Shown: piece after piece, positions 36,169-56,147 of the stretch
Numbering within the stretch: the first letter of the stretch is position 1
Layout: each line of letters begins with the position of its first letter
Assembly (NCBI GenBank): GCA_021373115.1
Contig: JAJFTI010000002.1
Coordinates: 25,868-89,867, forward strand
DNA length: 64,000 nucleotides
Origin: Eubacteriales bacterium
GTDB lineage: Bacteria > Bacillota > Clostridia > Christensenellales > CAG-138
Direction: 5' to 3'
Translations under genes and position numbers: made by a program
The notes under the pieces: model-generated
Database searches by the model: none
What the model was told of the DNA's origin: nothing
The model's input: only the letters and a program-made list of their open reading frames with translations

Positions 36169-36906
36169 TCAGATATCGAGACGATATCCTTGGAACATAT
36201 GCTCCGAAACAAGCTTGGTGCCGACGCTAAAGGAAGCGCTTACAGCGCCTAAGGCTTCTGCGGGATTTTTGTCTTCGATTGCCTGAACCAAACGTTCCAG
36301 ATATCCCAAGCATTCGGTGCGGTCCATGTTGGTATAGTAGCATTCGTTTACCTGGGAAAGAATATTGATAAACGAGTAGAAAATCAACGGAGTAATAACG
36401 TTGCAGGACGCCACGCATACCGTGTGATGCAACTCAAAGTCGATGGCCGCCATGGCGCGTGGATCGGTTTCCAGCTTTAACTGATTCAGAAGGCTCTTCA
36501 ATGCCTCCACATCGTCATCCGAACGATTCAAGGCGGCCTGTTCGGCGGCTTCCTTTTCGATCATCGTACGCATATCCGTCAGGGACCGAAACATCGTCGG
36601 GTTGAGATGGCCGCCGTTATAGTTGATGATAGACAACAGCGTATCCAGCTTGCCGATTCGTTTATAATCCGCAACAAAAGTACCCTTTCGCGGAACGACA
36701 CATAAAAAGCCTTTGGCTTCCATATCGGCTAATCCGCCGTTCACGATTGCGCGGCTGACCTTCATCTTTTTTGAAAGCTCACGTTCGGTGGGCAACTTTT
36801 CGCCTACGGACAGCTTTCCCGAGATGATGAGCGCTTCAATTTCTTTGACAAACAGTTCTCTTACCCTCGGAACATGCAATTCTGAGAGCTCTTCTTCGAT
36901 CCTCAT
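36169..36906 (-). CDS. GntR family transcriptional regulator (FadR/FCD subfamily)
   Basis: Winged HTH ..GKLSVGEKLPTERELSKKMKVSRAIVNGGLADMEAKGFL.. plus an all-helical FCD-like C-terminal domain. GGAGG RBS. Confidence 0.9.
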   Translation of the reverse strand: MRIEEELSELHVPRVRELFVKEIEALIISGKLSVGEKLPTERELSKKMKVSRAIVNGGLADMEAKGFLCVVPRKGTFVADYKRIGKLDTLLSIINYNGGHLNPTMFRSLTDMRTMIEKEAAEQAALNRSDDDVEALKSLLNQLKLETDPRAMAAIDFELHHTVCVASCNVITPLIFYSFINILSQVNECYYTNMDRTECLGYLERLVQAIEDKNPAEALGAVSASFSVGTKLVSEHMFQGYRLDI

Positions 36907-37000: not shown

Positions 37001-37012
37001 GTGGTATACCAC
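37001..37012. promoter_or_regulatory. Candidate GntR operator 1, perfect palindrome GTGGTATACCAC
   Basis: 12-bp perfect dyad of the GT-N-AC type expected for FadR-like GntR regulators. Sits just upstream of the putative gntR promoter (TTGCGT, 18 nt, TAAAAT on the minus strand, 36958-36987). Confidence 0.6.
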
Positions 37013-37082
37013 GGAGCAACACGCTGTTCGAGTAATCGTACTAATACCTGCAATATAAAGAAAAAGGGCAAAAAAATCTTTT

Positions 37083-37092
37083 TGGTATACCA
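37083..37092. promoter_or_regulatory. Candidate GntR operator 2, TGGTATACCA
   Basis: Second exact copy of the 10-bp core (TGGTATACCAC shared), 22 nt upstream of the -35 box of the plus-strand operon. Confidence 0.55.
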
Positions 37093-37113
37093 CAAACCAT
37101 GAGCATTTTTTTG

Positions 37114-37390: not shown

Positions 37391-38740
37391 ATGACGGGAA
37401 AGGAACTGGTCATAGCCGCGTTTCAGCATGCCGATACCCCGAGGGCGCCCTGGGTGCCGTTTGCGGGGATCCATGCCGGCAAACTGAAAGGGTATAACGC
37501 ACAGGAGCTTTTGACCGATGGAGAAAAGCTGGTCGAGTCCCTGCGGGAAGTGCATCGGCTGTATGTGCCCGACGGCATGCCGATTGTGTTTGACCTGCAG
37601 TTGGAAGCCGAGATTCTTGGCTGCGATCTCATGTGGTCCGAAAACAACCCGCCTTCCGTGACCAGCCACCCGCTGGCAAATCAGGACGAAATGCCGGATA
37701 AATTCGTCGAGAAAACGGACGGGCGCGTGCCTTTGATTCTGGACGCCTGCCGGAAAATGAAAGCAGAATTCGGAGACAAAACGGCTTTATACGGATTATT
37801 CTGCGGGCCGTTCACGCTGGCGTCCCACCTCGCGGGCACCAGGCTGTTCAAGGACATGAAGAAAAATCCGGAATACGTTCACAAAATCATGGATTACTGC
37901 ACGAAGAACGCGCTTCGGATGATCGACTATTACGCAGAGACCGGAATGGATATCGTCGCGCCGGTTGATCCGCTGGTAAGCCAGATCAGCCCCAAAGCAT
38001 TCGAGGAATATTTAGCGGGACCATATTCGGAATTATTCAAGCATATCCGCGAAAAGGGATTACATTCCAGCTTCTTTGTCTGCGGCAACGCGCTGCCCAA
38101 TATTGAGAACATGTGCAAGACCAATCCGGACGGGATTTCGATTGACGAGAACATACCGATGGCGACGGCAAAAGAAATCACCGACCGCTACAATCTGGCG
38201 ATCGGCGGCAATATTCCGCTGACCACCACGATGCTTTTCGGCAATCAGCAGGACAACATGAAGTTTGTGGTGGATATGGTTGGCAGCGTTGCGCGCAAAA
38301 ACCTGATCGTTTCGCCCGGCTGCGACATGCCGTATGATGTGCCGCTGGAGAATGTCATTGCGGTGGCGGAAGCGGTGCGGGACATCGATAAATACCGCGA
38401 ACTGCTGAAGAATTACGAGAGCGCCGGAGTTGGAGCCGATGTGGAACTGCCGGACTATGCGAACGCGGTTCGGCCGTATGTGGAGGCCTATACCCTGGAC
38501 AGCGCCAGCTGCGCTGCCTGTACCTATATGTGGGCCGTCGTGAACGACGCCAAGGATCACTTCGGAGACAGAATCGAAATTGCGGAGTATAAGTATACAA
38601 CCAAGGACGGCATTGCGCGCAGCAAAAAGTTGGGGGTTGCGAATCTGCCCAGCGTTTATATCAACGGAGAGCTGGCCTATGCGTCCGTCATCCCCAACCA
38701 GGAAGAATTCTTCAGGAAAATTGAAAGCTACATAAAATAG
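37391..38740 (+). CDS. URO-D/MtaA-MtbA family methyltransferase fused to a C-terminal thioredoxin-like (CxxC) domain
   Basis: The N-terminal ~360 aa resemble uroporphyrinogen-decarboxylase-family corrinoid methyltransferases (..PWVPFAGIHAGKL.., ..FFVCGNA.., ..VSPGCDMPYDVP..). The C-terminal ~90 aa carry CAAC and ..LPSVYINGELAYASVIPNQEEF... GGAGG lies 7 nt before ATG 37391. Confidence 0.75.
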   Translation: MTGKELVIAAFQHADTPRAPWVPFAGIHAGKLKGYNAQELLTDGEKLVESLREVHRLYVPDGMPIVFDLQLEAEILGCDLMWSENNPPSVTSHPLANQDEMPDKFVEKTDGRVPLILDACRKMKAEFGDKTALYGLFCGPFTLASHLAGTRLFKDMKKNPEYVHKIMDYCTKNALRMIDYYAETGMDIVAPVDPLVSQISPKAFEEYLAGPYSELFKHIREKGLHSSFFVCGNALPNIENMCKTNPDGISIDENIPMATAKEITDRYNLAIGGNIPLTTTMLFGNQQDNMKFVVDMVGSVARKNLIVSPGCDMPYDVPLENVIAVAEAVRDIDKYRELLKNYESAGVGADVELPDYANAVRPYVEAYTLDSASCAACTYMWAVVNDAKDHFGDRIEIAEYKYTTKDGIARSKKLGVANLPSVYINGELAYASVIPNQEEFFRKIESYIK

Positions 38741-38821
38741 CGGATTCATCCAACGTACAAAAGATAACTTTTCGAAATGAATCAGGCAGGGGCCTATAAT
38801 AACTTAAGGAGCGAAAATGGT

Positions 38822-39520
38822 ATGGCGAAAGAAGAAATCCTGAAACGAATTGCGAAACTCGTTGCGGAAGGCGACGAGGAGGAAGCAGTTCAAGCGGTCA
38901 AGGAAGGCTTTGCCGCAGGGCTGGATCCCCTTGTGATCCTGAACGAAGGCGCGGCCAAGGGCATGGACATCGTTAGCGAGCAGTATTCTGCCGGTGAAGC
39001 TTATTTACCGGAACTGGTACTCTCGGGAGACACGATGAGCGCGGTGATCGAAGTGATTTTTGCAAACATGAGCAAGGAACAGGCGGCGGCCTCCAAACAG
39101 GGTGTAATCGTCATTGGCCAGGCAAAGGGCGACGTGCATGATATCGGCAAAAACGTTGTCGCAGCACTGCTGTCGGTCAACGGCTTTGAAGTACACGATT
39201 TGGGAATTGACGTGACAGTGAAGTCTTTCTATGACAAAGCGCAGGAAGTTGGGGCGGATATTGTTGCCATTTCCACACTTTTAACGACGTCTTTGCCGTA
39301 CCTGGAGGATACCGCGCGGTATCTGACGGATACCAATACGCGGAATAAATATCAGCTTATCGTCGGCGGCGGCCCCGTCACGCCGGAATTCGCGAAAAAG
39401 ATTGGTGCGGACGGCTGGGCACGCAACGCGTTTGACTGTGTTGAACTGTGCCGGAAGCTGGTTGCGAAGGGAAATCCCGGCGCGGGCTCCACGATGATCG
39501 TAGATTCCGAAGCGGTTTAA
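38822..39520 (+). CDS. Cobalamin-binding corrinoid protein (methyltransferase cognate)
   Basis: Helical cap domain (..YSAGEAYLPELVLSGDTM..) and B12-binding domain with DxHxxG (GDVHDIGKN), AISTLLTTS and IVGGGPVT. Confidence 0.9.
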   Translation: MAKEEILKRIAKLVAEGDEEEAVQAVKEGFAAGLDPLVILNEGAAKGMDIVSEQYSAGEAYLPELVLSGDTMSAVIEVIFANMSKEQAAASKQGVIVIGQAKGDVHDIGKNVVAALLSVNGFEVHDLGIDVTVKSFYDKAQEVGADIVAISTLLTTSLPYLEDTARYLTDTNTRNKYQLIVGGGPVTPEFAKKIGADGWARNAFDCVELCRKLVAKGNPGAGSTMIVDSEAV

Positions 39521-39531
39521 GGAGAGAGACA

Positions 39532-40977
39532 ATGTATAACTATAAAGTACAAAGATTGCTCAACAACCTGGATAAGGCCTACATCGGGCCGGTTCTGCCC
39601 ATGAAGGAATGGGACACAAAGATCATACCCCAAACCATTAAAGCCATCCTGAAAAAGCATGGACTGATGGGAACGCTGGATATGGAGAACCCCATCAACT
39701 GCGATGACGATCTGGCGGATGCGTTCTTCAAGGCCGGCTGGGAACTGGCGCTTGAGCTGGGCATGTACTGCGAAGATACGGAGCGCGTCATCAAGATTAC
39801 CGAAGACGAATTGCTGGAGTGCATCCGGGACTATCAAGCGGTCAATATCCTTGGCGAAGGACAGGATCAGGTCATCATGAAGCCGCGCCGTCCGGAAGAT
39901 CCCTATCAGCCGCTCGTTGCGGCGAGTCTGGGAATCGTATGCTCGGAAGAAAACTATCTCCCCTTGGTGCAGGGGATCGTCAAGTATCCAAAGCTGGTGG
40001 ACGTCCTGCACGGACCGACGCTGGCAACGGTATTCGGACGGACGTTCCGCTCGGGCACGCCGTACGAAACACTGATGGGAAACTATGAGTCGCACCTGAA
40101 GAAGGAAGCGCTGTGGCGCGCGGGTCGTCCCGGAATGGCCTGCACGGGCGTTGCGGGCGCGGTTACGGAATACGGCCATTTGGGCGGCGCGCCGGAGCTG
40201 GCGGGACGCGGAAACGTTACGATGTCCCTTTGCCCGGTTGAGCTCAAGTGCACGTTCTCCAACTTCCATCGAATCATGCAGGGCCTGAACTACGGGCATA
40301 AGCTGCGTGTTGGCGCGTTCTCCTATATTGGCGGTTATGCGGGTCCTGCGGAAGGCGCGGCGCTTGCCTGCGTTGCAAACGACCTTCTGATTCCGACGAT
40401 TCTGCAGAGCGACTATACGAGCTCCTATGTGTATGACATTCAGCTCTTTGGCAACTGCGGCCGCAAGGCTGTTTGGGCCAACAGCGTTTCGATTCAGGCC
40501 ATCAGCCGGAATACGGGATTCATGCGCAACAAGATCGTAAACGAGACGGGTGGTCCGTGCACGGAGATGTTCATGTACGAAGCGGCGGTGGGACTGATGA
40601 ACCACAGCGTATCCGGCGCAAGCAAAACGACGCAGCCGCGCAGCGCGGGCGGACGGTATACGGATTACATTACGCCGGTCGAGTGCTGGTGGAGCGGCGA
40701 TGTGTTCAAGTCCTGTGCCGGTATGACACGCAAGGACGCGAACGAGATCGCGAAAAAGATACTGCCGAAGTACGAAGAGAAACTCGGCGCACCTGACAAA
40801 GGCCTGCCCATCAGCGAATGCTTTGACCTTGTGAAGCAGCAGCCGAAGGACAACTACATTGAGCTGTTCAACCGCGTGCGCAATGAACTCATCGACCTCG
40901 GCATGCCGCTGGATAAGGCTTTTGGCGAAACCTACATGGGAAAAGTCTCCAACGGACGCAGGACGATCGTTCTGTAA
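39532..40977 (+). CDS. Monomethylamine methyltransferase (MtmB) family homologue lacking pyrrolysine
   Basis: By-eye alignment to remembered M. barkeri MtmB: KAGWELALELGMYCEDTERVIKITEDEL, AGRPGM, GGYAGP, GGPCTEMFMYEAA and the C-terminal ECFDL..LIDLGMPL. ORF is uninterrupted with no in-frame TAG. AAGGAG lies 7 nt before ATG 39532. Confidence 0.75.
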   Translation: MYNYKVQRLLNNLDKAYIGPVLPMKEWDTKIIPQTIKAILKKHGLMGTLDMENPINCDDDLADAFFKAGWELALELGMYCEDTERVIKITEDELLECIRDYQAVNILGEGQDQVIMKPRRPEDPYQPLVAASLGIVCSEENYLPLVQGIVKYPKLVDVLHGPTLATVFGRTFRSGTPYETLMGNYESHLKKEALWRAGRPGMACTGVAGAVTEYGHLGGAPELAGRGNVTMSLCPVELKCTFSNFHRIMQGLNYGHKLRVGAFSYIGGYAGPAEGAALACVANDLLIPTILQSDYTSSYVYDIQLFGNCGRKAVWANSVSIQAISRNTGFMRNKIVNETGGPCTEMFMYEAAVGLMNHSVSGASKTTQPRSAGGRYTDYITPVECWWSGDVFKSCAGMTRKDANEIAKKILPKYEEKLGAPDKGLPISECFDLVKQQPKDNYIELFNRVRNELIDLGMPLDKAFGETYMGKVSNGRRTIVL

Positions 40978-41010
40978 AAACCGCTCACCGAGTCTTGAAA
41001 ACAAAACAGA

Positions 41011-41038: not shown

Positions 41039-41068
41039 CAGCCCGGATAAAACGGAAAGCGCAGCAAA

Positions 41069-42208
41069 ATGGAGCAGGCAGCCCCCATCCGGCTCTACCT
41101 GATTAACGGGTTCTTAGGGTCCGGGAAAACTACATTTATGCGAGCATTGATCGATTCGTTCCAAGGCACGCGCTTGGGTGTGCTGGTGAACGAATTTGGA
41201 AGCATTGGGATCGATGGCACGCTGGTTCAAAAAGAAGGCATCCGTTTGGTTGAAGTCAATCGCGGGTCCATCTTTTGTGCCTGCATTAAAGACGGGTTTA
41301 TTCGTACGCTGAAGGCGTTTTCGCAGCAGCCGATTGACACGCTTCTCATCGAGAGTTCGGGAATGGCCGATCCGGCCGGTATGGCGAAGATTCTGGAAGG
41401 GCTGGCAAGCCATCTCGACCGGAAATTCCAATACGCAGGCAGCATATGCCTTGTGGACTGCACCAGCTTTGCGGATTATGCGGATATTCTGATGCCGCTC
41501 CAGAATCAAGTTGCCAGCGCAGATTTCATCATCGTCAACAAGCTGGACCTTGTGAACGCGGAACAACTGGAAGAGGTTCACAAACTCATACGCCATTTCA
41601 ATTCGGATGCGCCCGTTTACGACACGGCATATGCGCAAGTCCCCCAGTCTGTTCTGCAAAACGACCTGAGAAACCGCGGGTATATCGGGGAAGGGACAAA
41701 TGCGCCGTATAACCGTCCGAACACATACACCCTGCTGTCGGACGCGAAATTGACCGAGGAGCAGCTGCGCCGGTTTTGCGAACTGCTTTCGGGAAAAGTT
41801 TTCCGGTATAAAGGGTTTTTACGCAGCACCGAAAAGGGATTTTGGCATGTGGAGGGAGTAGGAGAACACTACTCGATCGAACCGGCATCGTTCCGCGACG
41901 GCGTACCCCCGCAGAACGGCCGTATTGTATGCATTGCATTTGACAACAGCCGCATTGCTGCGGAGGTGGAATCGGCATGGTCTGCATCCGTTCCGGAATA
42001 CGCGCAGAAGAAAACAACCCTGGAACAAGCGGCACCGATGGTTAAAAAACCCGGTATAACCGCTTCCGTAAAGCTGCGCACCAATGCTGTTCCACAAAGA
42101 AACGCTTGCCCGCCACGTCTGAGGGCGCCTCGTGACGAATCACGGACAGCGGCCTGCGGCGGTTCCGGCCATGACCGCGCAATGGACAAAGACGAAAAAC
42201 CAGGCTGA
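41069..42208 (+). CDS. CobW/COG0523 (G3E family) GTPase metallochaperone-like protein
   Basis: P-loop GFLGSGKTT, ESSGMADP, VNKLD and a CobW_C-like domain (..KGFLRSTEKGFWHVEGVGEHYSIEP..). Ends in an unusual tail of about 65 aa. Confidence 0.8.
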   Translation: MEQAAPIRLYLINGFLGSGKTTFMRALIDSFQGTRLGVLVNEFGSIGIDGTLVQKEGIRLVEVNRGSIFCACIKDGFIRTLKAFSQQPIDTLLIESSGMADPAGMAKILEGLASHLDRKFQYAGSICLVDCTSFADYADILMPLQNQVASADFIIVNKLDLVNAEQLEEVHKLIRHFNSDAPVYDTAYAQVPQSVLQNDLRNRGYIGEGTNAPYNRPNTYTLLSDAKLTEEQLRRFCELLSGKVFRYKGFLRSTEKGFWHVEGVGEHYSIEPASFRDGVPPQNGRIVCIAFDNSRIAAEVESAWSASVPEYAQKKTTLEQAAPMVKKPGITASVKLRTNAVPQRNACPPRLRAPRDESRTAACGGSGHDRAMDKDEKPG

Positions 42209-42517
42209 GACGGCATCCGTGCGGAACCAAGCTGCTTTGCGAAACACGCAAGGTGCGCAATTCGGGTTCCGTGCCCCGCCGGACAAAGCGTTTTGATAAA
42301 GCGATATCGGTATAGTTACGAATGTATAAAGGAAGATCGCTCCACAGGATCGCTCGTTGTAACCTGAAAATTGAATAGTATGCCGGGGTTCAATCTCCGG
42401 TTTCCCCAAAATGCTATGACTCTGAAGCGCCTGATGGGGAAGGCGCCCCTCGAATTTGGTAACACGACGTAGAGACCCAGCGAGATGGTATTTACGGAGG
42501 CAGGAGGAAGCATCATA

Positions 42518-44080
42518 ATGACACAGCCAATTCTCGAAATGCGAGGCATTACCAAACGGTTCCCGGGCGTGGTCGCGAACGATCACGTGGATCTTACGCT
42601 CTATCCTGGCGAAATTCACGCGCTTCTTGGCGAAAACGGCGCCGGGAAAAGCACGCTGATGAATGTGCTCACCGGCATTTATGCGCCGAACGAGGGACAT
42701 ATTCGTTTTAAGGGTCAACCGGTCGATTTAAAAAGCCCGAAAAGCGCGGTTGATCTGGGCATCGGAATGGTGCACCAGCACTTCAAACTGATAGAACCGC
42801 TTACCGTGGCGGAAAACGTATTTCTGTACTCTGGGCGTTGCAAAGCGATGCTCAACACCAGAGACATGAATCAATGCATCAAAGAATGCTCTGAAAACCT
42901 AAATCTAAAAGTAGACCCCAACGCAAAAATATGGCAGCTTTCCGTGGGCGAACAGCAGCGCGTTGAAATTATCAAGCTTCTGTTCTGCGGCGCTGAGCTG
43001 ATGATTCTGGACGAGCCTACCGCTGTGCTCACCCCGCAGGAAACGGTGGAACTTTTCAAAACCCTGCGCAAAATGGCGGATCAGGGCAAATCCGTTCTAT
43101 TCATCACCCATAAACTTTATGAGGTGATGACGTTCGCAGACCGCATCACCGTATTACGCAACGGACGCTCCGTCGATCATATGCTGACCAAAGATACAAC
43201 ACGCCAGAAACTCACCAATCTGATGGTGGGCAGGGACGTGTTAAAAGTCGTGCCGGAACGTGACACGGCCAAGAGCACGCGGGAAGTGTTGCGGCTGGAA
43301 AATATCTGTGCCATGTGCGACAAGGGCGTGCCCGCACTTAACGGCCTCAGCCTGACCATCTACGGAGGCGAAATACTGGGAATCGCGGGCGTAGCCGGCA
43401 ACGGGCAGCGCGAGCTGTCCGAGGTAATCGCCGGGTTGCGCCGCGTTACCGGCGGAAAGATGTTTTTAAACGGGAAAGAGGTAACAAACCTATCTTCCCG
43501 GGACAGCATCAAGAAGGGGATCGCCTTCGTGCCGGAAGACCGTATGGGAATGGGCCTGGTAGCCAACCTTGATATGGTAGACAATGCCATGCTGCGTGAT
43601 TATGACGTGCCGCCCATCAATCGAAAAGGCATCCTGAATAAAAAAGAAGCAATTCGCCGCACGGAATCATTTGTGAAGGCGCACGATATTAAAAACGCAG
43701 GCATCAAAAAACCCGTACGTCTGATGTCCGGCGGCAACTTGCAGAAGCTGCTCATCGCGCGGGAAATCCATGGCAATCCCGACGTGGTGGTTGCGGCCTA
43801 TCCGGTGCATGGGTTGGATATTGGCGCAACCGAGACGATCCATAAAGTGCTCATGGAGCAGCGCGCGCGGGGAGCGGCCATACTGCTGATTTCCGAGGAT
43901 CTGGAGGAGCTGTTCGAACTTTCCGACCGGGTTGCGGCGCTCTATGAAGGCGAGGTTATGGGCATTATACCCATTGAGAAGGTTACCGAGGAAATGTACA
44001 CGCGGGTAGGCAGCTTGATGCTCGGCGACAGGGAAGAAAGCGCTGCCAAAGAACAAACGGGAGGTATGGCGGAGGCATGA
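42518..44080 (+). CDS. ABC transporter ATP-binding protein, duplicated NBD (BMP/nucleoside-type system)
   Basis: Walker A GENGAGKST, signatures LSVGEQQR and MSGGNLQK. GGAGGAAG RBS before ATG 42518. Confidence 0.9.
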   Translation: MTQPILEMRGITKRFPGVVANDHVDLTLYPGEIHALLGENGAGKSTLMNVLTGIYAPNEGHIRFKGQPVDLKSPKSAVDLGIGMVHQHFKLIEPLTVAENVFLYSGRCKAMLNTRDMNQCIKECSENLNLKVDPNAKIWQLSVGEQQRVEIIKLLFCGAELMILDEPTAVLTPQETVELFKTLRKMADQGKSVLFITHKLYEVMTFADRITVLRNGRSVDHMLTKDTTRQKLTNLMVGRDVLKVVPERDTAKSTREVLRLENICAMCDKGVPALNGLSLTIYGGEILGIAGVAGNGQRELSEVIAGLRRVTGGKMFLNGKEVTNLSSRDSIKKGIAFVPEDRMGMGLVANLDMVDNAMLRDYDVPPINRKGILNKKEAIRRTESFVKAHDIKNAGIKKPVRLMSGGNLQKLLIAREIHGNPDVVVAAYPVHGLDIGATETIHKVLMEQRARGAAILLISEDLEELFELSDRVAALYEGEVMGIIPIEKVTEEMYTRVGSLMLGDREESAAKEQTGGMAEA

Positions 44081-45168
44081 AAATCCGATTTGAAAAACGT
44101 GAAAAACTACACCCGGTTTGGAAATTGCTCAACCCTGTAATATGCATCGTTCTGGCGCTTCTGGCCTGTTCGTTTCTGGTGATCGCAATTGGCAAGGATC
44201 CTGTTGCGGCATACGGCAAGCTATTCAGCGGCGGGTTCGGGTCCGCAAAGAAGCTGTCTGAAAGCATACTGCAGGCCATCCCGCTTATGTTCTGCGCGCT
44301 GGGCGTTTCCATTTCGTTTAAAATGTCGATCAACAACATCGGCGCGGAAGGGCAATACGTGATGGGGGCGATGGCGGCCACAGGCGTGGCGCTGTTCTGT
44401 CCCTGGATTCCGCATGCGCTGGTGATACCGGCAATGATCATAGCCGGGTTTGCTGCGGGCGCCTTGTGGGCCATGCTGGCGGTGATTCCAAAAGCGTTCT
44501 GGAATGTGAACGAAACCATCATTACGCTGATGTTCAACTATGTGGCGCTGCTGTTTGTGGACTTTCTCCTCTTTGGCGCCTGGCGGGATACATCGTTGAA
44601 CCTGAACTATTCGCCGGCTTATCCGGAATACGCCATGTTGCCCAAGGTATTTGGAACGCGCATCAATTCGGCCATCTATATCGCAATTATTGCAGCCGTC
44701 TGTATTTATCTATTCTTCGATAAAACAACCCGCGGTTACCAGATCCGCGTGATCGGATCCTCGGTGCGAGCGGCGAGTTATGCGGGCATGAATATTCGGA
44801 CGAATATCCTCATCGTCATGCTGTTCTCAGGCGGCCTCGCAGGGCTTGCGGGCGTGGCGCAAGCCAGCGGCGCGGTCGGCAGGTTGCAGCAAAACTTTGC
44901 CAACGGCACCGGTTATACGGCCATAATTGTTGCTTACTTATCCAAGTTCAATCCCTTTACGGTACTGATCGTCTCAATTCTGTTCAGCGGTCTTTCCTAT
45001 GGCAGCGTAGCCACGCAGCTGGTCGGCGTACCGGACCAAGTGGGCGTGGTGATTCAGGGCGCCATTCTGATTTTTGTGCTCGGTGGCGAGATATTCTCGC
45101 GTAATCGGCTGATTATTACACGGAGAGAGAAAGAAACAGCTCTCGCGAAGAAAGGAGCGACCAAATAA
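44077..45168 (+). CDS. ABC transporter permease
   Basis: Polytopic. Its start overlaps the ATPase stop (ATGA). Confidence 0.85.
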   Translation: MKIRFEKREKLHPVWKLLNPVICIVLALLACSFLVIAIGKDPVAAYGKLFSGGFGSAKKLSESILQAIPLMFCALGVSISFKMSINNIGAEGQYVMGAMAATGVALFCPWIPHALVIPAMIIAGFAAGALWAMLAVIPKAFWNVNETIITLMFNYVALLFVDFLLFGAWRDTSLNLNYSPAYPEYAMLPKVFGTRINSAIYIAIIAAVCIYLFFDKTTRGYQIRVIGSSVRAASYAGMNIRTNILIVMLFSGGLAGLAGVAQASGAVGRLQQNFANGTGYTAIIVAYLSKFNPFTVLIVSILFSGLSYGSVATQLVGVPDQVGVVIQGAILIFVLGGEIFSRNRLIITRREKETALAKKGATK

Positions 45169-46100
45169 TGGATTGGATCGTATCCGTTGTTGCGGCGACG
45201 ATTGGGTATGCCGCTCCGGTTCTTTACGCCAGCCTTGGTGAAATCATTTCGGAGCGCGCGGGCGTCCTGAATCTGGGTCTTGAAGGCGTTATGCTCATTG
45301 GCGCCGTCACGGGCTATATTACAGCAGTAGAGAGCGGATCTTTGGCGCTGGCCATTTTGGCGACGATGTTGGCCGGGATGCTAACAGGTCTGGTATACGC
45401 CGTTCTGACCGTTACTCTGCAGACCAATCAGGTGGTCAGCGGACTGGCGCTGGTGACCGTTGGCACCGGTCTGTCGGGATTCTTTGGCAAACCCTATACG
45501 GCGGTAACCGGTTTGGAAGGGTTTAAGAATCTCGCGATCCCCGGCTTATCCCAGATACCGGTATTGGGGCCGATGCTTTTTAAGCAGAACGTAATGGTTT
45601 ATGCCCTCTATATTTTAGTGCCTTTGATCTACGTGTTTCTCTACAAAACACGTCCGGGGCTGAAGCTCAGGGCGCTGGGTGAAAACCCTGGCGCGCTGGA
45701 TGCCGCAGGGATGAACGTATTCGGCATGCGCTACTTATATGTCATTCTGGGGAATGCGATTGTTGCGCTCGGCGGCGCGTATTTCACGCTGGCGTACATC
45801 CCGGGCTGGCAGGATTCGATTACGGCCGGCAAAGGATGGATCGCCGCGGCGTTGGTGATCTTCTCCTCCTGGAATCCGGCAATGGCCACGGTTGGCGCGC
45901 TGATCTTTGGCGGCGTAGAGGTGCTGGGGCTGCGGCTGCAGGTGTTGTTTCCCAACATCGGCATTCCGACCTACTTCATCAGCATGCTGCCCTATGTGGC
46001 TACGGTTCTTGTGCTGATCCTCTCAACCGGCAGCTTCCGTAAGCACCGTAAGCCCGGACCGGCCGCGCTGGGAGCCTTTTACGACCGCGAGGCGCGCTGA
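45168..46100 (+). CDS. ABC transporter permease
   Basis: Polytopic. Its ATG overlaps the previous TAA (TAATG). Confidence 0.85.
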   Translation: MDWIVSVVAATIGYAAPVLYASLGEIISERAGVLNLGLEGVMLIGAVTGYITAVESGSLALAILATMLAGMLTGLVYAVLTVTLQTNQVVSGLALVTVGTGLSGFFGKPYTAVTGLEGFKNLAIPGLSQIPVLGPMLFKQNVMVYALYILVPLIYVFLYKTRPGLKLRALGENPGALDAAGMNVFGMRYLYVILGNAIVALGGAYFTLAYIPGWQDSITAGKGWIAAALVIFSSWNPAMATVGALIFGGVEVLGLRLQVLFPNIGIPTYFISMLPYVATVLVLILSTGSFRKHRKPGPAALGAFYDREAR

Positions 46101-46172
46101 GACCCGTCACTACCATGCTATTTCATTTGCGGGAAATCCGTAATAAAAAAACGAAAGAAAGCGAGAAAAAAA

Positions 46173-47378
46173 ATGAAGGTTACCAAAAAGCTCATCGGTC
46201 TACTCCTTGTATTGGCCCTCGCTCTGTCAGCGCTTACCGGCTGCGCGCAAACTAGCGCTCCGGTCGCTGCCGACACTTCCTCGGACAGCGCAGCTTCCGA
46301 CACTGCAGCGGCCGAACCCACCGAGGCTGCCGAAGCTGCCGAAGCAACCGAAGCAGCGGGAATTCCCTTATCCGAAATCAAGGTCGGCGTTGTTCTCAAC
46401 ACCATGAAGGAAGACGGCGGCTGGAGCCAGTCCCACAACGCTTCCTTCCTGGCCGCCAAAGAGCAACTGGGTCTTACGGACGATCAGATGATCATCATCG
46501 ACAACGTCCCGGATACCGGCAACGACTGCGCCAATACCATTGAGATGCTGATTGGCGAAGGCTGCAACATGATCTTTGGCACGTCTTCCGGTTTGACGGA
46601 CGCGATCCATGCCGAAGCGAAGCTGCATCCGGACGTTTATTTCCATCAGTTCGAAGGCGTACCCGCTGACAACTGCGCCAGCTACTCCGTACGCGATTGG
46701 GAAACCATGTTCCTCCTCGGCTATGCGGGCGCCAAGCTCTCGAACGGCGACAAGCTGGGCTTCATGGCCGCGCAGCCGCAGGCTTCCGTGGTCCGCGCAG
46801 TGAACGCGTATGCCCTGGGCGCCAAGTATGCCAACCCGAACGCAACCGTTCAGGTTGTTTGGGCCAACAGCTGGTATGATCCCGCCAAGGAAAAAGAGGG
46901 CGCGACCTCCATGCTTGCGAGCGGCATCAACGTACTGGGCTATCACGGCTCCACAACGGCGGTAGCCGAGGCTTGCACCGATGCGGGCGCCTTCATGTCC
47001 GGCTTCCATATCGATATGCACGATTACGCGCCGACGGCCGTCTATTCTTCCCATATGTGGAACTGGACTCCGCTGTATGTTGAATTCATCAATCGTGCGG
47101 TGGCAGGCACCTGGACCGGCGAAATGCTCTATATGGGTATTGACAGCGGCTGCGCCCAGCTGGCTCCCTGGAATACCGACATCGTCTCTGCGGACCTCAT
47201 CGCCGAACTGAATGGCGTACAGGCCAAGCTGGAATCCGGTGAAATCCAGGTCTTCGGTGGCCCGCTGTCGGACAACACCGGCAAGGAAGTGCTTGCTGCC
47301 GGCGCCGAATTCACCAACGATCAGCTGATTGGCATGATGTTCCTCGTGGATAACGTGATTGGACAGCTGCCCAGCTAA
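46173..47378 (+). CDS. BMP family (PnrA/Med-like) ABC substrate-binding lipoprotein
   Basis: Lipobox LSALTGC and an Ala/Glu/Thr-rich linker with the near-repeat AEPTEAAEAAEATEAA. Then IKVGVVLNTMKEDGGWSQSHN.., typical of basic-membrane-protein family binding proteins. Confidence 0.85.
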   Translation: MKVTKKLIGLLLVLALALSALTGCAQTSAPVAADTSSDSAASDTAAAEPTEAAEAAEATEAAGIPLSEIKVGVVLNTMKEDGGWSQSHNASFLAAKEQLGLTDDQMIIIDNVPDTGNDCANTIEMLIGEGCNMIFGTSSGLTDAIHAEAKLHPDVYFHQFEGVPADNCASYSVRDWETMFLLGYAGAKLSNGDKLGFMAAQPQASVVRAVNAYALGAKYANPNATVQVVWANSWYDPAKEKEGATSMLASGINVLGYHGSTTAVAEACTDAGAFMSGFHIDMHDYAPTAVYSSHMWNWTPLYVEFINRAVAGTWTGEMLYMGIDSGCAQLAPWNTDIVSADLIAELNGVQAKLESGEIQVFGGPLSDNTGKEVLAAGAEFTNDQLIGMMFLVDNVIGQLPS

Positions 47379-47406: not shown

Positions 47407-47438
47407 AAGGGAATGCTCGCAAAAGCGAGCATTCCCTT
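47407..47438 (+). promoter_or_regulatory. Intercistronic stem-loop after the binding-protein gene
   Basis: 14-bp perfect stem AAGGGAATGCTCGC/GCGAGCATTCCCTT with loop AAAA, immediately before the GAAGGAGG RBS of the next gene. Confidence 0.6.
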
Positions 47439-47460
47439 CCATGAAGGAGGAAAAACTGAT

Positions 47461-48870
47461 ATGATGAAAATACTCATTAAGAATGCCAAGGCGATTGTGA
47501 CTTGCAACGATTCCGACCAGGTGCTGTTCGATTCGGATATCCTTCTTAACGGAAAGGAGATCGAGGCGATCGGCCATGATCTCAGCGCCGACGGCGCAAA
47601 GGTGATTGATGCCCATAAAATGTTTGTGTATCCGGGGCTGATCAATACACATCATCACTTTTTACAGGCATTTACCCGCAGCATTCCGCAGCTGCAGCAG
47701 GCCACCCTGTTCGACTGGCTGATCTTCATGTATGAAGTTTGGACGTTGGTCGATCCGGAACATGTTTATTACAGTAGCCTGGTGGGCATGAGCGAATTGG
47801 TTAAGTATGGCTGCACAACGGCGTTTGACCACCACTTCTGCTTTCCGCAGGGAGTCGATAAAGTACTGATCGATCGCCAGATGACAGCGGCGGAACAGGT
47901 TGGCATCCGCTACCATGCAGGCCGCAGCTGTTTCACGCTTACCCACAAGGATGGCGGACTGCCACCGGATGTTCTGGGCGAAACCGTAGATGAATTCATC
48001 AAGGATTGCGACCGCCTGATCGATACTTACCATGAATACGACCGCTTTGGCATGAAGCGGGTGGTGGTTGCTCCGTGTTCGCCATTCTCCGTGACGGATG
48101 ATACGATTACCGAGGCCGTCAAACTGGCAAGAAGCAAAAAAGTGCGCATGCATTCGCACTTGGCGGAAGCGCCGGACGAAACCGTTTACATGCGGGACAG
48201 GCACAACATGACCTCGCTCGAGTGGGCGCAGAAACTGGGGTTTATTGGGCCGGATATCTGGTATGCCCACGGTATCTGCTTCAGCGATGACGAAGTAAGG
48301 ATTTTAGGAGAAACCCAAACCGGCGTTGCCCACTGCCCGGTTTCCAATATGAAGACCTGCGCAGGGTTCATGAAACTGCCGCTCATGAAGAAATACGACG
48401 TGCCCGTTGGACTGGCGGTGGATGGTTACGGCGCACAGGACGGCTCCAACCTGCTTGGTGAAATCCGCATGGCATACCTCATGCATCGAATGAACGCCAA
48501 CCACCAGGAAGCGCCCTCCGGCTACGAATGCCTGAAACTGGCAACACGCGGCAGCGCGCGGGTGCTGGGGCGCGATGATGTTGGCTCCCTGGAAGTCGGC
48601 AAGGCAGCGGATCTGTTTATGATTGATGTGGATCGTCTGGAATACGCAGGCGGGTTGCTGGATCCCGGCGCTTTCCCGGCCGTGGTTGGATATAACCGGC
48701 CTGTCGAAATGACGATTATTAACGGCAAGATCGTTTGGGAAAACGGCGTACTGCACGGAATAGACGAGGAAGCCGTTAAAGCGAAGGCAAATGAAATTGC
48801 GAAGCGTGTCTACAGCAGCGGCGTATATGCCCGCGAGACGGCACGCATGGATAAAAAATACGCGAAATGA
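47461..48870 (+). CDS. Amidohydrolase-superfamily deaminase (COG0402; 8-oxoguanine/guanine/chlorohydrolase-like), paralogue 1
   Basis: PGLINTHHHFLQAFTR (HxH), HSHLAE, WYAHGI and GLAVDG blocks. Confidence 0.85.
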   Translation: MMKILIKNAKAIVTCNDSDQVLFDSDILLNGKEIEAIGHDLSADGAKVIDAHKMFVYPGLINTHHHFLQAFTRSIPQLQQATLFDWLIFMYEVWTLVDPEHVYYSSLVGMSELVKYGCTTAFDHHFCFPQGVDKVLIDRQMTAAEQVGIRYHAGRSCFTLTHKDGGLPPDVLGETVDEFIKDCDRLIDTYHEYDRFGMKRVVVAPCSPFSVTDDTITEAVKLARSKKVRMHSHLAEAPDETVYMRDRHNMTSLEWAQKLGFIGPDIWYAHGICFSDDEVRILGETQTGVAHCPVSNMKTCAGFMKLPLMKKYDVPVGLAVDGYGAQDGSNLLGEIRMAYLMHRMNANHQEAPSGYECLKLATRGSARVLGRDDVGSLEVGKAADLFMIDVDRLEYAGGLLDPGAFPAVVGYNRPVEMTIINGKIVWENGVLHGIDEEAVKAKANEIAKRVYSSGVYARETARMDKKYAK

Positions 48871-51225: not shown

Positions 51226-51226
51226 C

Positions 51227-52102: not shown

Positions 52103-52569
52103 TTGAAATCAAATGTACCGTTAACGGCAAGCCGACGCAGGTGCGCATAGAGGAAGGGGAAACGCTGCTCGATATGATTCGGGAACGCCTTGGCCTCACC
52201 GGAACCAAGCGCGGCTGCGAGGTTGGAGAATGCGGCGCATGCACCGTTTTACTGGACGGCGTGCCCACGGACTCCTGCCTGATGCTGGCGGCGCTGGCGG
52301 ACGGAAAGGATATCCTGACCATAGAAGGGATATCCAGCGGCAGGGAACTCTCCGTCATGCAGCAGGCGTTTGTGGACGAAGGCGCAATCCAGTGCGGTTA
52401 TTGCACGCCTGGAATGATACTGACCGCCCACGCCTTGCTGAAGAAGAATAAAAACCCCACGGCGGAGGACATCAAACGGGAACTGGCGGGGAATATGTGC
52501 CGCTGCGCCGCCTATAATCAGATCATCAACGCCGTGCAGAAAGCCGCCCGGGAAGAAAACAAAGACTGA
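52099..52569 (+). CDS. Xanthine dehydrogenase family [2Fe-2S] small subunit
   Basis: GCEVGECGACTV and CGYCTPG..NMCRC motifs. Overlaps the previous stop. Confidence 0.9.
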   Translation: MIEIKCTVNGKPTQVRIEEGETLLDMIRERLGLTGTKRGCEVGECGACTVLLDGVPTDSCLMLAALADGKDILTIEGISSGRELSVMQQAFVDEGAIQCGYCTPGMILTAHALLKKNKNPTAEDIKRELAGNMCRCAAYNQIINAVQKAAREENKD

Positions 52570-56057: not shown

Positions 56058-56147
56058 CGTTGCCATGCTCAGCCGATTCAGCTTGTCAAAGAGGGCCTAT
56101 ACCGTCCGGCAGTGTGCCGCGTCAGAAGGATACCGGAAGAAGGAAAT

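What the first reader, a model, noticed from the sequence alone, without database searches (positions are those of the whole stretch)
39532..40977. MtmB-family methyltransferase without pyrrolysine
Uninterrupted 481-codon ORF. Several blocks align by eye with M. barkeri MtmB as I remember it: KAGWELALELGMYCEDTERVIKITEDEL vs KAGFEMLLECGIYCTDTHRIVKYTEDEI; AGRPGM; GGYAGP vs GGYAGG; GGPCTEMFMYEAA vs AGPCTEMCLLEAS; ECFDL..LIDLGMPL vs ECYDV..LEDLGLVF. In MtmB the amber-encoded pyrrolysine (residue 202) follows GRPGMGV. Here the equivalent stretch is GRPGMACTGVAG (nt 40123-40158), with sense codons (about Cys204/Thr205) and no in-frame TAG. Non-Pyl relatives of the trimethylamine enzyme MttB are known to demethylate quaternary amines such as glycine betaine, carnitine and proline betaine. 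I am not aware of a characterised non-Pyl MtmB-family member, so the substrate is unknown.
Basis: partly seen in the sequence, partly recalled or inferred. Interest (0 to 1): 0.8.

Follow-up and report, generated by a model that had tools for sequence, protein, structure and literature searches.

The report
Pyrrolysine-free MtmB homologue in purine-catabolism cluster
The gene is a real pyrrolysine-free relative of the methanogen methylamine methyltransferase MtmB, and it and its relatives in many anaerobes sit inside purine uptake and breakdown gene clusters, which suggests an untested oxygen-independent way of removing methyl groups from methylated purines.

Summary
Bases 39532-40977 (+) are an uninterrupted 481-codon gene. 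It matches Pfam MtmB over its full length (237 bits). Its model has the M. barkeri MtmB fold (TM 0.89-0.93). The pyrrolysine-202 position is Thr205 (ACG), in a motif kept in the closest homologues, so it is not a miscalled TAG.

The novelty claim is out of date. Non-Pyl MtmBs have long been recognised, and one, MtqB (tetramethylammonium/choline), was characterised in March 2026. The window protein is not close to that part of the family: it shares 27% identity with Pyl-MtmB and 22-28% with its nearest non-Pyl relatives.

The context is the new element. A same-strand cluster (37391-56780) holds corrinoid methyl-transfer parts: an MtaA-like enzyme, corrinoid protein, the MtmB-like enzyme, CobW, RACo activase and DUF1638. 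These bracket a purine-base-type ABC importer, two 8-oxoguanine-deaminase-like amidohydrolases and XdhABC. Purine-type neighbours occur in 29/31 close and 25/27 distant homologue loci across phyla. They occur in 0/3 Pyl-proximal control loci. No paper found reports this link.

Best reading (about 0.5): it is the substrate-specific methyltransferase of an anaerobic N-methylpurine demethylation system. The exact substrate and the methyl acceptor are unknown.

The parts
36169..36906 (-). Divergently transcribed GntR/FCD (FadR-type) transcriptional regulator, the likely regulator of the cluster
   Evidence: Pfam GntR 2.1e-14, FCD 1.7e-13, FadR_C 3.1e-10
37001..37093 (.). Two palindromic GntR/FadR-type operator-like sites, GTGGTATACCAC (37001-37012) and TTGGTATACCAC (37082-37093). 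They lie just upstream of a promoter-like TTGACA-17-TAAGAT at 37114-37142.
   Evidence: Four matches counting both strands, found only here in the 64 kb; 0 of 100 shuffles reach 4 matches. The promoter scan gives the best-scoring + strand site at 37114. Function as an operator is inferred.
37391..38740 (+). MtaA/CmuA-like UroD-family methyltransferase fused to a C-terminal thioredoxin-like domain with a CAAC (CxxC) motif. It is the only candidate for the methyl-corrinoid:acceptor methyltransferase (MT2) in the window.
   Evidence: Pfam URO-D 4.8e-54. NCBIfam TIGR01463 mtaA_cmuA 148 bits (below its cut-off of 235). NF047660 HUIPC Trx-like domain at residues 381-456. Sequence. No pterin-binding or MtrH-type MT2 in the window. 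The ORF opens at TTG 37364; the ATG at 37391 follows a GGAGG.
38777..39520 (+). Cognate corrinoid (B12-binding) protein carrying the DxHxxG motif (DVHDIG)
   Evidence: Pfam B12-binding 1.6e-23 and B12-binding_2 4.8e-17. NCBIfam pyl_corrinoid and MtgC-like hits, all below cut-off. A corrinoid protein gene lies in the locus with the MtmB homologue in 61 of 63 loci, usually directly adjacent.
39532..40977 (+). The finding itself: a non-pyrrolysine MtmB-family protein, predicted to be the substrate:corrinoid methyltransferase (MT1)
   Evidence: Pfam MtmB 237 bits over the full length. PDB 1L2Q E 8.5e-47. AlphaFold model pLDDT 94.5; Foldseek 1L2Q TM 0.89/0.93, rmsd 1.8 A.
40144..40146 (+). Codon ACG (Thr205), which aligns with pyrrolysine 202 of M. 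barkeri MtmB
   Evidence: Position 202 as the Pyl site comes from PMC11467909.
41010..41039 (+). GC-rich 13-bp-stem hairpin between the MtmB-like gene and cobW, with no T-tract on the + strand. It could be an mRNA-processing or stability element; its function is unknown.
41069..42208 (+). CobW/G3E-family GTPase (metallochaperone type)
   Evidence: Pfam cobW 1.3e-41, CobW_C 6.6e-07. The order UROD-CobW-CoP-MtmB recurs in L013, L019, L030, L031 and L034, and CobW-UROD-CoP-MtmB in L027.
42485..47378 (+). Bmp/PnrA-type ABC importer: ATPase 42485-44080, permeases 44077-45168 and 45168-46100, substrate-binding lipoprotein 46173-47378
   Evidence: Pfam. The closest solved structures to the binding protein are the guanine-binding AtzT 6PI5 (E 5.6e-54) and the adenine-bound 3S99 (PMC6834077). 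The aromatic sandwich and Ser97 are kept. Three hydrogen-bonding residues of AtzT are changed: Glu165 to Ser, Asn218 to His, Asn220 to Ser (my mapping onto the paper's numbering).
47413..48870 (+). Amidohydrolase AH1, 8-oxoguanine-deaminase-like (cog0402 group)
   Evidence: NCBIfam NF006055 480 bits, cut-off 532; Pfam Amidohydro_1
48949..52569 (+). Xanthine dehydrogenase XdhA (48949-51225), FAD subunit XdhB (51227-52102) and 2Fe-2S subunit XdhC (52099-52569)
   Evidence: NCBIfam NF043082 XdhA 886 bits, above its cut-off of 780. Pfam FAD_binding_5/CO_deh_flav_C and Fer2/Fer2_2.
52596..53963 (+). Amidohydrolase AH2, a paralogue of AH1, 8-oxoguanine-deaminase-like. Its relatives include AtzB, an N-alkylaminohydrolase.
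   Evidence: NCBIfam NF006055 523.5 bits, cut-off 532. PDB 3HPA E 7e-116; 7WW2 '8-oxoguanine deaminase / hydroxydechloroatrazine ethylaminohydrolase' E 1e-114.
54489..56057 (+). RACo/RamA-type ATP-dependent reductive activase of corrinoid proteins
   Evidence: Pfam RACo_C_ter 2.5e-65 and Raco_middle 3.4e-41. NCBIfam AcsV-like 320 bits and RamA-like 132 bits.
56112..56780 (+). DUF1638 protein of unknown function, which recurs next to corrinoid methyltransferase genes in the related loci
   Evidence: Pfam DUF1638 4e-36. Present in 9/31 close and 7/27 distant loci.

Best explanation
The gene encodes the substrate-specific methyltransferase (MT1) of a corrinoid-dependent demethylation system. Most likely it takes a methyl group from an N-methylated purine, or a closely related N-heterocyclic nucleobase, rather than from methylamine.

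Proposed sequence of events:
1. The Bmp-type ABC importer, whose binding protein belongs to the purine-base-binding subfamily, brings the methylated base into the cell.
2. The MtmB-like TIM-barrel enzyme positions the N-methyl group for attack by the Co(I) form of the adjacent corrinoid protein. This gives methyl-Co(III) and the demethylated purine.
3. The MtaA-like UroD enzyme passes the methyl group to an acceptor. In this organism that is probably a thiol. In relatives that carry a MeTr- or MtrH-type gene instead, it is tetrahydrofolate.
4. The RACo activase restores Co(I) after accidental oxidation. CobW probably loads a metal.
5. The two 8-oxoguanine-deaminase-like amidohydrolases and XdhABC deaminate and oxidise the purine ring into the xanthine/urate pool for fermentation.
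6. A divergent GntR regulator with two palindromic operator-like sites controls the cluster.

What is shown: family membership, the fold, absence of Pyl, the identity of the neighbouring genes, and the conservation of the gene association. What is inferred: the substrate class, the order of the steps, the role of the UroD enzyme as MT2, and the acceptor.
For: (1) The protein is a full-length MtmB-family member with the MtmB fold. Scaffold residues are kept across Pyl-proximal and non-Pyl members: R119, E139, D157, E179, R199, K239, the GGxxGxxE motif and E350.
(2) All parts of a three-component corrinoid system lie on one strand: MT1, corrinoid protein with DxHxxG, an MtaA-like enzyme, RACo, CobW and DUF1638. 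They physically bracket the purine genes: the corrinoid genes are at 37391-42208 and 54489-56780, and the purine genes at 42485-53963.
(3) XdhA scores above NCBIfam's equivalog cut-off. Both amidohydrolases score close to the 8-oxoguanine deaminase cut-off. The binding protein's nearest solved relatives bind guanine (KD 110 nM) and adenine. It keeps the aromatic sandwich but changes three hydrogen-bonding residues, as would be expected for a modified purine.
(4) The association is conserved. Among loci of at least 9 kb, 29/31 with an MtmB homologue of 66% identity or more, and 25/27 with 36-49% identity, carry XDH subunits, cog0402/cog1001 amidohydrolases, Bmp ABC, PucR or NCS1/NCS2 nucleobase permeases within 10 kb. 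The lineages include Oscillospiraceae, Lachnospiraceae, Peptococcaceae, Spirochaetota, Coriobacteriales, Anaerolineales, Verrucomicrobiota and archaea.
(5) Control: three non-Pyl relatives close to Pyl-MtmB lie in archaeal pyl/methylamine loci with no purine-type neighbours under the same pipeline. In the window itself, purine-type genes occur only in this cluster.
(6) Many loci hold 2-5 MtmB paralogues from different subclades, with different residues at the Pyl-equivalent position. This fits several methyl positions or several substrates.
(7) By analogy, characterised non-Pyl MttB and MtmB members use substrates other than the simple methylamine, chiefly cationic N-methyl compounds (PMC13044021).
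Against: There are no experimental data for this clade, so everything about the substrate rests on gene neighbourhood. XDH-family and amidohydrolase hits are family-level, and other N-heterocycles are not excluded. Neutral N-methylpurines are chemically poor methyl donors unless protonated or cationic.

The amidohydrolases belong to a group that includes N-alkylaminohydrolases such as AtzB. They could therefore release methylamine from exocyclic N-methylpurines, which would make methylamine the real substrate.

The MT2 is not conserved across loci. It is a UroD-type enzyme in some, MeTr or MtrH in others, and absent within 10 kb in the closest relative L010. The UroD enzyme could instead be a second MT1.

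In Formimonas, a non-Pyl MtmB-superfamily protein was the most induced protein on dichloromethane (PMC9768040), a condition with no obvious link to purines. I could not establish whether that protein is the homologue found here.
Confidence: 0.5

Rival explanations
1. It is still a monomethylamine:corrinoid methyltransferase that works without pyrrolysine. On this view, the neighbouring AtzB/8-oxoguanine-deaminase-type amidohydrolases hydrolyse exocyclic N-methylaminopurines (N6-methyladenine, N2-methylguanine) to hypoxanthine or xanthine plus methylamine, and the MtmB homologue then harvests the methyl group of that methylamine.
For: AH1 and AH2 are closest to a group that contains hydroxyatrazine N-ethylaminohydrolase, which releases an alkylamine from a heteroaromatic ring. 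Adenine-deaminase-type (cog1001) enzymes are adjacent in Formimonas and in L009, L040 and L041; from my own recollection, not checked here, that group includes an N6-methyladenine deaminase. MtqB shows a small amount of monomethylamine demethylation (PMC13044021). The family name and the conserved scaffold also fit.
Against: The residue that activates methylamine in MtmB (Pyl202) is Thr here. From my recollection only, three acidic residues lining the Pyl site (E205, E229, E259) align to Ala208, Cys234 and Gly261. No ammonium/methylamine transporter lies in these loci, unlike the Pyl-type control loci. Two to five divergent paralogues per locus are hard to explain with one small common substrate.
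Confidence: 0.13
2. It demethylates a methylated N-heterocycle or amine that is not a purine. Candidates include N-methylnicotinate or N-methylnicotinamide, a methylated pyrimidine or pterin, or an s-triazine-like compound. The molybdenum hydroxylase and the amidohydrolases would then process that ring.
For: Xanthine-dehydrogenase-family enzymes also hydroxylate nicotinate, pterins and other heterocycles. The cog0402 amidohydrolases include isoxanthopterin and triazine hydrolases. The binding protein has altered hydrogen-bonding residues compared with guanine-binding AtzT, and AtzT itself accepts hydroxyatrazine and ammeline.
Against: XdhA passes the XdhA equivalog cut-off. PucR purine-catabolism regulators, NCS2 xanthine/uracil permeases, NCS1 purine/cytosine permeases and adenine deaminases recur in related loci. 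The binding protein's nearest solved relatives are purine-base binders.
Confidence: 0.2
3. It is an orthologue of MtqB and demethylates choline or tetramethylammonium. The purine genes would be neighbours by coincidence.
For: MtqB is the only characterised non-Pyl MtmB (PMC13044021). Quaternary amines are the established substrates of non-Pyl MttB relatives.
Against: The paper places the MtqB clade next to the Pyl-MtmBs. The window protein shares only 27% identity with MbMtmB1 and 22-28% with the full-length non-Pyl proteins nearest to it, and it sits in a distant radiation. A purine context in 54 of 58 loci across phyla, against 0 of 3 controls, is not coincidence. No choline or betaine (BCCT-type) transporter was seen in the loci listed with Pfam annotation. 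I did not have the MtqB sequence, so orthology was not tested directly.
Confidence: 0.04

Closest known systems
MtqB of Methanococcoides methylutens Q3c/NaT1 (tetramethylammonium/choline:corrinoid methyltransferase), the only characterised non-Pyl MtmB homologue (PMC13044021)
   Same: Both are MtmB-family (PF05369) proteins with no pyrrolysine. Both are paired with an adjacent cognate corrinoid protein and act as the first component of a three-component methyl-transfer system.
   Different: MtqB is archaeal and methanogenic, feeds methyl groups to coenzyme M through MtbA, and branches near the Pyl-MtmBs. The window protein is bacterial (nearest relatives are Oscillospiraceae MAGs) and shares 22-28% identity with the Pyl-proximal group. 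It lies in a purine uptake, deamination and oxidation cluster.
Pyrrolysine-containing monomethylamine methyltransferase MtmB (M. barkeri MtmB1, PDB 1L2Q/1NTH)
   Same: Same fold (TM 0.89-0.93, rmsd 1.8 A), collinear over the whole length, with shared motifs RPGM, GGYAG and GPCTEM.
   Different: 27% identity. Pyl202 is replaced by Thr205. There is no in-frame UAG, no tRNA gene of any kind in the window (so no tRNA-Pyl gene), no adjacent pyl genes and no ammonium transporter. Pyl-type loci look quite different.
Non-Pyl MttB-superfamily quaternary-amine methyltransferases (MtgB glycine betaine, MtcB carnitine, MtpB proline betaine, MtyB gamma-butyrobetaine)
   Same: The same evolutionary theme: a Pyl-enzyme family whose Pyl-free members use other N-methyl donors with a cognate corrinoid protein, an MT2 and an activase.
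   Different: A different protein family (PF06253), with only a distant structural match (TM about 0.5). Their substrates are aliphatic quaternary amines, and their loci carry betaine-type transporters rather than purine genes.
Type 1 mlp gene clusters (MtaA-like Mlp proteins, corrinoid protein and Ram/RACE; Kountz and Balskus, PMC10418091)
   Same: Bacterial MtaA-like UroD methyltransferases with a corrinoid protein and an activase, but no tetrahydrofolate methyltransferase. A sulfur or selenium acceptor has been proposed. The window's UroD enzyme carries a Trx-like domain related to a selenoprotein family.
   Different: The paper does not mention MtmB, CobW or GntR. Those clusters have several Mlp proteins and no MtmB-type MT1 or purine genes.
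Aerobic methylxanthine N-demethylases NdmABCDE of Pseudomonas putida CBB5 (from my own knowledge, not checked here)
   Same: If the hypothesis holds, the same net chemistry: removal of N-methyl groups from purines ahead of xanthine oxidation.
   Different: Those are Rieske non-haem iron oxygenases that need O2 and release formaldehyde. This would be an O2-independent corrinoid methyl transfer that conserves the methyl group.

Membership tests
MtmB family (Pfam PF05369) | Full-length match to the family profile above the curated cut-off | tested here: met
   237.4 bits against a cut-off of 25; residues 11-458 on profile positions 5-450 of 450
MtmB family (Pfam PF05369) | TIM-barrel fold of M. 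barkeri MtmB | tested here: met
   AlphaFold2 model pLDDT 94.5, pTM 0.93. Foldseek top hits 1L2Q, 1NTH and 1TV2: TM 0.89/0.93, rmsd 1.8 A over 454 columns.
MtmB family (Pfam PF05369) | Encoded next to a cognate B12-binding corrinoid protein | tested here: met
   The corrinoid protein gene ends 11 nt upstream. A corrinoid protein is present in 61 of 63 related loci.
Pyl-dependent monomethylamine methyltransferase (MtmB in the strict sense) | In-frame UAG decoded as pyrrolysine at the position equivalent to residue 202 | tested here: not met
   Thr205 (ACG) at that column, no internal stop codon, and the motif is conserved in homologues
Pyl-dependent monomethylamine methyltransferase (MtmB in the strict sense) | pylTSBCD present in the genome | not testable with these tools
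   ARAGORN found no tRNA gene of any kind in the 64-kb window. pyl genes were not specifically searched for, because the region 1-14350 and some other ORFs were not scanned against family libraries, and the rest of the genome is not available. The question does not bear on this gene, which has no UAG.
Pyl-dependent monomethylamine methyltransferase (MtmB in the strict sense) | Methylates its corrinoid protein with monomethylamine | not testable with these tools
   This needs an enzyme assay. NCBIfam has no model that matches the protein (0 families).
MtqB (tetramethylammonium/choline methyltransferase) clade | Groups phylogenetically with Methanococcoides MtqB, next to the Pyl-MtmBs | tested here: inconclusive
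   I could not obtain the MtqB sequence. The window protein shares only 22-28% identity with full-length non-Pyl proteins nearest to MbMtmB1 and lies in a distant radiation. The paper places MtqB near the Pyl-MtmBs.
MtqB (tetramethylammonium/choline methyltransferase) clade | Genomic setting of methylotrophic methanogenesis (MtbA, CoM pathway) | tested here: not met
   The context is bacterial, with purine catabolism genes
[quoted passage not shown] | MT1, corrinoid protein with DxHxxG, a second methyltransferase and an ATP-dependent reductive activase encoded together | tested here: met
   MtmB-like MT1; corrinoid protein with DVHDIG; MtaA/CmuA-like UroD enzyme; RACo. The assignment of the UroD enzyme as MT2 is inferred.
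Purine catabolic gene cluster (XdhABC type) | Xanthine dehydrogenase Mo, FAD and 2Fe-2S subunits with purine deaminase-type amidohydrolases and a purine transporter | tested here: met
   XdhA 886 bits against a cut-off of 780. AH1 and AH2 score 480 and 523.5 against a cut-off of 532, so they are near but below the 8-oxoguanine deaminase equivalog threshold. The binding protein is closest to guanine- and adenine-binding structures.

The most novel reading that the evidence does not exclude
Most of the Pyl-free MtmB radiation, including this gene, would be N-methylpurine (methylated nucleobase):corrinoid methyltransferases. That would be a previously unrecognised, oxygen-independent pathway by which anaerobes in guts, sediments and digesters strip methyl groups from compounds such as 7-methylguanine, N6-methyladenine or methylxanthines (caffeine, theobromine). 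The methyl group would go into C1 or thiol metabolism and the ring into xanthine dehydrogenase-based purine fermentation. Different paralogues would be specialised for different methyl positions.
Probability: 0.4. Interest if true: 0.8.

Novelty: new variant of a known kind. Interest (0 to 1): 0.6.

Why it matters
The function of Pyl-free MtmB homologues has been open for years, and only one clade (MtqB) has been assigned, in 2026. The family holds at least 447 clusters at 50% identity at E <= 1e-10, mostly full-length and therefore Pyl-free.

A gene-neighbourhood signal that is consistent across phyla now points a large part of that family to methylated purines. This turns an open question into a short list of enzyme assays.

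If confirmed, it would add a new substrate class to corrinoid-dependent methylotrophy. It would provide an anaerobic counterpart to the oxygenase route of methylxanthine demethylation. It would also identify a route for recycling methylated nucleobases from nucleic-acid turnover and from diet in gut and sediment communities. Database annotation of these proteins as 'monomethylamine:corrinoid methyltransferase' would then be misleading for methane-cycle and trimethylamine/methylamine gene inventories.

Tried and rejected
- **Miscalled TAG or readthrough:** rejected. The codon is ACG, the motif is conserved in independent homologues, and the gene has no internal stop.
- **Another protein family:** rejected by Pfam, the PDB sequence search and the fold search.
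- **NCBIfam:** no model matches the protein.
- **Rfam:** a scan of the whole window found nothing, so there is no cobalamin or purine riboswitch.
- **ARAGORN:** no tRNA genes.
- **mlp gene-cluster paper:** it looked relevant from the search, but it does not mention MtmB, CobW or GntR.
- **Formimonas protein:** I tried to link the dichloromethane-induced Formimonas non-Pyl MtmB (Ga0180325_111810) to the homologue P0052 through the paper's supplements. The held files contain none of the locus tags.
- **MtqB sequence:** I could not obtain it. The paper text gives only identities, and I did not open its supplementary files. Direct comparison was replaced by comparison with the full-length non-Pyl proteins nearest to MbMtmB1.
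- **Literature:** searches for MtmB with xanthine dehydrogenase, MtmB with purine, corrinoid protein with methylguanine, methyladenine or caffeine, and xanthine dehydrogenase with corrinoid protein found no report of the association. The one caffeine paper attributes N-demethylation to Methanosarcina, without any enzyme.
- **Pocket inspection:** the structure tool returns no coordinates, so the pocket around Thr205 could not be inspected or docked.
- **Background rate:** I did not measure how often purine genes occur in random genomic windows of these genomes. The only controls are three Pyl-proximal loci and the remainder of the window.
Full report
**1. The observation**

Bases 39532-40977 (+) form an uninterrupted ORF of 481 codons ending in TAA. 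An AGGAGA ribosome-binding site precedes the ATG, and the upstream corrinoid-protein gene ends 11 nt before it. The protein matches Pfam PF05369 (MtmB) over its whole length: 237 bits, E 3.7e-70, cut-off 25. An AlphaFold2 model built on a 72-sequence alignment has mean pLDDT 94.5. Foldseek retrieves the three MtmB crystal structures first (TM 0.89/0.93, rmsd 1.8 A). MttB and MtgB follow far behind, at TM about 0.5.

Pyrrolysine 202 is the amber-encoded site (PMC11467909). It aligns with Thr205, codon ACG at 40144-40146, preceded by Cys204 (TGC). Both codons differ from TAG at two positions. The motif GRPGMACTGVAGAVTE recurs nearly unchanged in the roughly 40 closest homologues from independent assemblies. 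The sense codon is therefore real.

**2. What was already known**

Kashyap et al. (Front Microbiol, March 2026, PMC13044021) showed that MtqB of Methanococcoides methylutens Q3c is a non-Pyl MtmB homologue. MtqB is the tetramethylammonium/choline methyltransferase. [quoted passage not shown] Their tree of 1,061 sequences leaves most non-Pyl members without a function. A non-Pyl MtmB-superfamily protein was also the most strongly induced protein in dichloromethane-grown 'Ca. Formimonas warabiya' (PMC9768040). The bare finding is thus a member of a recognised but almost uncharacterised group.

**3. Position in the family**

The protein has many database relatives: 456 hits in the word-indexed search, and 823, 447 and 167 clusters at 50% identity at E <= 1e-3, 1e-10 and 1e-30 in the exhaustive search. 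Most are full-length and so have no amber codon. Sources name them generically 'monomethylamine:corrinoid methyltransferase'.

The nearest genomes are MAGs of Bacillota and Oscillospiraceae, with an Oscillibacter sp. at 93% and the best match at 95%. Close relatives of 70-90% identity occur in Sporobacter, Hungateiclostridiaceae, Lachnospiraceae, Coriobacteriales, Peptococcaceae, Treponema/Spirochaetaceae and Formimonas.

A search with M. barkeri MtmB1 returns true Pyl enzymes as C-terminal fragments of about 245 residues, cut at the amber codon. It also returns a set of full-length proteins 38-57% identical to MtmB1. These share only 22-28% identity with the window protein, which is itself 27% identical to MtmB1. 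In a neighbour-joining tree the window protein sits in a shallow 'MACTGVA' clade. That clade lies inside a large non-Pyl radiation remote from the Pyl enzymes and their nearest non-Pyl relatives. The 2026 paper places MtqB next to the Pyl-MtmBs, so orthology with MtqB is unlikely. I could not obtain the MtqB sequence to test this directly.

**4. The surroundings**

The gene lies in a same-strand cluster from about 37391 to 56780. In order:
- an MtaA/CmuA-like UroD-family methyltransferase fused to a thioredoxin-like domain with a CAAC motif;
- the corrinoid protein, with the DVHDIG motif;
- the MtmB-like gene;
- a CobW GTPase;
- a Bmp/PnrA-type ABC importer;
- an 8-oxoguanine-deaminase-like amidohydrolase, 480 bits against a cut-off of 532;
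- XdhA (886 bits, above the equivalog cut-off of 780), XdhB and XdhC;
- a second 8-oxoguanine-deaminase-like amidohydrolase, 523.5 bits;
- a RACo/RamA-type corrinoid reductive activase, then DUF1638.

A GntR/FCD regulator is transcribed divergently. The intergenic region holds two palindromes, GTGGTATACCAC and TTGGTATACCAC, found nowhere else in the window. They lie just upstream of the best promoter-like site. The corrinoid methyl-transfer genes therefore bracket the purine uptake, deamination and oxidation genes.

The binding protein's closest solved relatives are AtzT and the adenine-bound 3S99. AtzT co-purifies with guanine (KD 110 nM). When I map AtzT's ligand contacts onto the alignment, the stacking aromatics (Tyr45 to Trp, Trp194 to Trp) and Ser97 are kept. 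Glu165, Asn218 and Asn220 become Ser, His and Ser. This is what one would expect for a planar purine-like ligand that is not plain guanine.

**5. The association is conserved**

I fetched 75 genomic loci encoding relatives. I then searched their six-frame ORFs with the window's neighbouring proteins and with six Formimonas neighbours.

Among loci of at least 9 kb, 29 of 31 with a homologue of 66% identity or more have at least one purine-type neighbour within 10 kb. The breakdown is XDH subunits 65%, cog0402/cog1001 amidohydrolases 65%, Bmp ABC 52%, PucR 32% and NCS1/NCS2 nucleobase permeases 19%. So do 25 of 27 loci with homologues of 36-49% identity, from Anaerolineales, Verrucomicrobiota, Kiritimatiellae, Marispirochaeta, Acidimicrobiia, Methanomethylicia and Nitrosopumilales. 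A representative at 31% identity again sits next to a Bmp ABC system. Pfam annotation of individual loci agrees. Formimonas has two corrinoid-protein/MtmB pairs, flanked by purine/cytosine permeases, adenine deaminase, PucR, a xanthine/uracil permease and MtrH- and MeTr-type methyltransferases.

As controls, three full-length non-Pyl relatives close to Pyl-MtmB lie in archaeal loci. Those loci carry split Pyl-MtmB/MtbB genes, PylS- and PylC-like genes and ammonium transporters, and they give no purine-type hit under the same pipeline. In the window itself, purine-type genes occur only in this cluster.

Twenty-two of the 58 loci hold two to five MtmB paralogues, from different subclades and with different residues at the Pyl-equivalent position.

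Ten literature searches found no report that links MtmB homologues or corrinoid proteins to xanthine dehydrogenase, purines, methylguanine, methyladenine or caffeine.

**6. Most likely mechanism**

It is shown that the protein is an MtmB-fold enzyme with the family's conserved scaffold (R119, E139, D157, E179, R199, K239, GGxxGxxE, E350). It is also shown that it lies next to a cognate corrinoid protein, with an activase and a second methyltransferase in the same cluster.

It is inferred that it is the MT1 that transfers an N-methyl group from an imported methylated purine (or related heterocycle) to Co(I). It is further inferred that the MtaA-like enzyme unloads the methyl group. The acceptor would be a thiol here and tetrahydrofolate in relatives with MeTr or MtrH. 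The demethylated ring would then be deaminated and oxidised by the amidohydrolases and XdhABC. The order could be the reverse, with ring processing before demethylation.

Chemically, cationic N-methylpurines such as 7-methylguanine or its nucleoside and 1- or 3-methyladenine resemble the quaternary amines used by other Pyl-free relatives. This argument comes from general chemistry, not from a test. I put this explanation at about 0.5.

**7. Rivals**

(a) The AtzB-related amidohydrolases release methylamine from exocyclic N-methylpurines, and the enzyme is a Pyl-independent methylamine methyltransferase (about 0.13). The lost Pyl, the absence of ammonium transporters and the multiplicity of paralogues count against this.

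(b) The substrate is another methylated N-heterocycle (about 0.2). The XdhA equivalog score and the PucR, NCS and adenine deaminase neighbours count against this.

(c) The protein is an MtqB-like choline/tetramethylammonium enzyme (about 0.04). Its distance from that part of the family and its context count against this.

The Formimonas proteomic result (induction on dichloromethane) is not explained by any of these. I could not connect it to a specific homologue.

**8. Verdict**

The new element is the conserved embedding of this clade, and of much of the non-Pyl MtmB radiation, in purine catabolic clusters. I found no report of this link in the literature held here. It yields a directly testable substrate hypothesis. 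I rate the finding a new variant of a known kind, with interest 0.6.

Noticed in passing
window 37001-37012 and 37082-37093: Two palindromic FadR/GntR-type operator-like sequences (GTGGTATACCAC, TTGGTATACCAC) lie between the divergent GntR gene and the UroD gene. They occur nowhere else in the 64 kb, and 0 of 100 shuffles reach the observed count.
   Followed up: partly
window 38500-38740 (C-terminus of the protein encoded at 37391-38740): The MtaA-like UroD methyltransferase carries a fused thioredoxin-like domain of about 80 residues. It matches the 'HUIPC motif thioredoxin-like (seleno)protein' family, with S-C-A-A-C in place of H-U-I-P-C. This hints at a thiol or selenol redox step or methyl acceptor.
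   Followed up: partly
window 41010-41039: A strong 13-bp GC-rich hairpin lies between the MtmB-like gene and cobW, with no T-tract on the coding strand. Its function is unknown.
   Followed up: no
L061, L064, L065, L066, L071 (Anaerolineales MAGs), whole loci: Four to six MtmB paralogues from several subclades are interleaved with one or two sets of xanthine-dehydrogenase-family subunits and one to three amidohydrolases. These look like dedicated multi-demethylation islands.
   Followed up: partly
L004 (Ca. Formimonas warabiya CP017634.1, 1857153-1878553): Two corrinoid-protein/MtmB pairs, one followed by an MtrH-like gene and one by a MeTr-like gene. They are flanked by adenine deaminase, PucR, NCS1 and NCS2 permeases and a non-Pyl MttB gene. 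Formimonas is a candidate for experiments because it is maintained in enrichment culture.
   Followed up: partly
L086 and L087 (archaeal contigs): Full-length non-Pyl MtmB relatives, 43-47% identical to MbMtmB1, sit beside split (amber-containing) MtmB genes, PylS- or PylC-like genes and ammonium transporters. Pyl and non-Pyl paralogues therefore coexist in one locus.
   Followed up: no
P0062 / L009 10001-11413: This homologue (61% identity) has a garbled stretch exactly at the Pyl-equivalent motif (RRTPGNGQHRSGRRRYP). It is probably a local frameshift error in that assembly.
   Followed up: no
window 53953-54366 and 57541-60396: A 137-codon ORF between the second amidohydrolase and RACo, and two ORFs of 546 and 302 codons downstream of the cluster, match no Pfam or NCBIfam family.
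   Followed up: no
window 15944-20515: A three-subunit 2-oxoacid:ferredoxin oxidoreductase is followed by an ADP-forming acyl-CoA synthetase, a typical fermentative energy-conservation module unrelated to the finding.
   Followed up: no
window protein residues 208, 234, 261: Three acidic residues of M. barkeri MtmB (E205, E229, E259) align to Ala208, Cys234 and Gly261. I recall, without having verified it, that these residues line the pyrrolysine site. If so, the anionic methylammonium pocket has been lost.
   Followed up: partly
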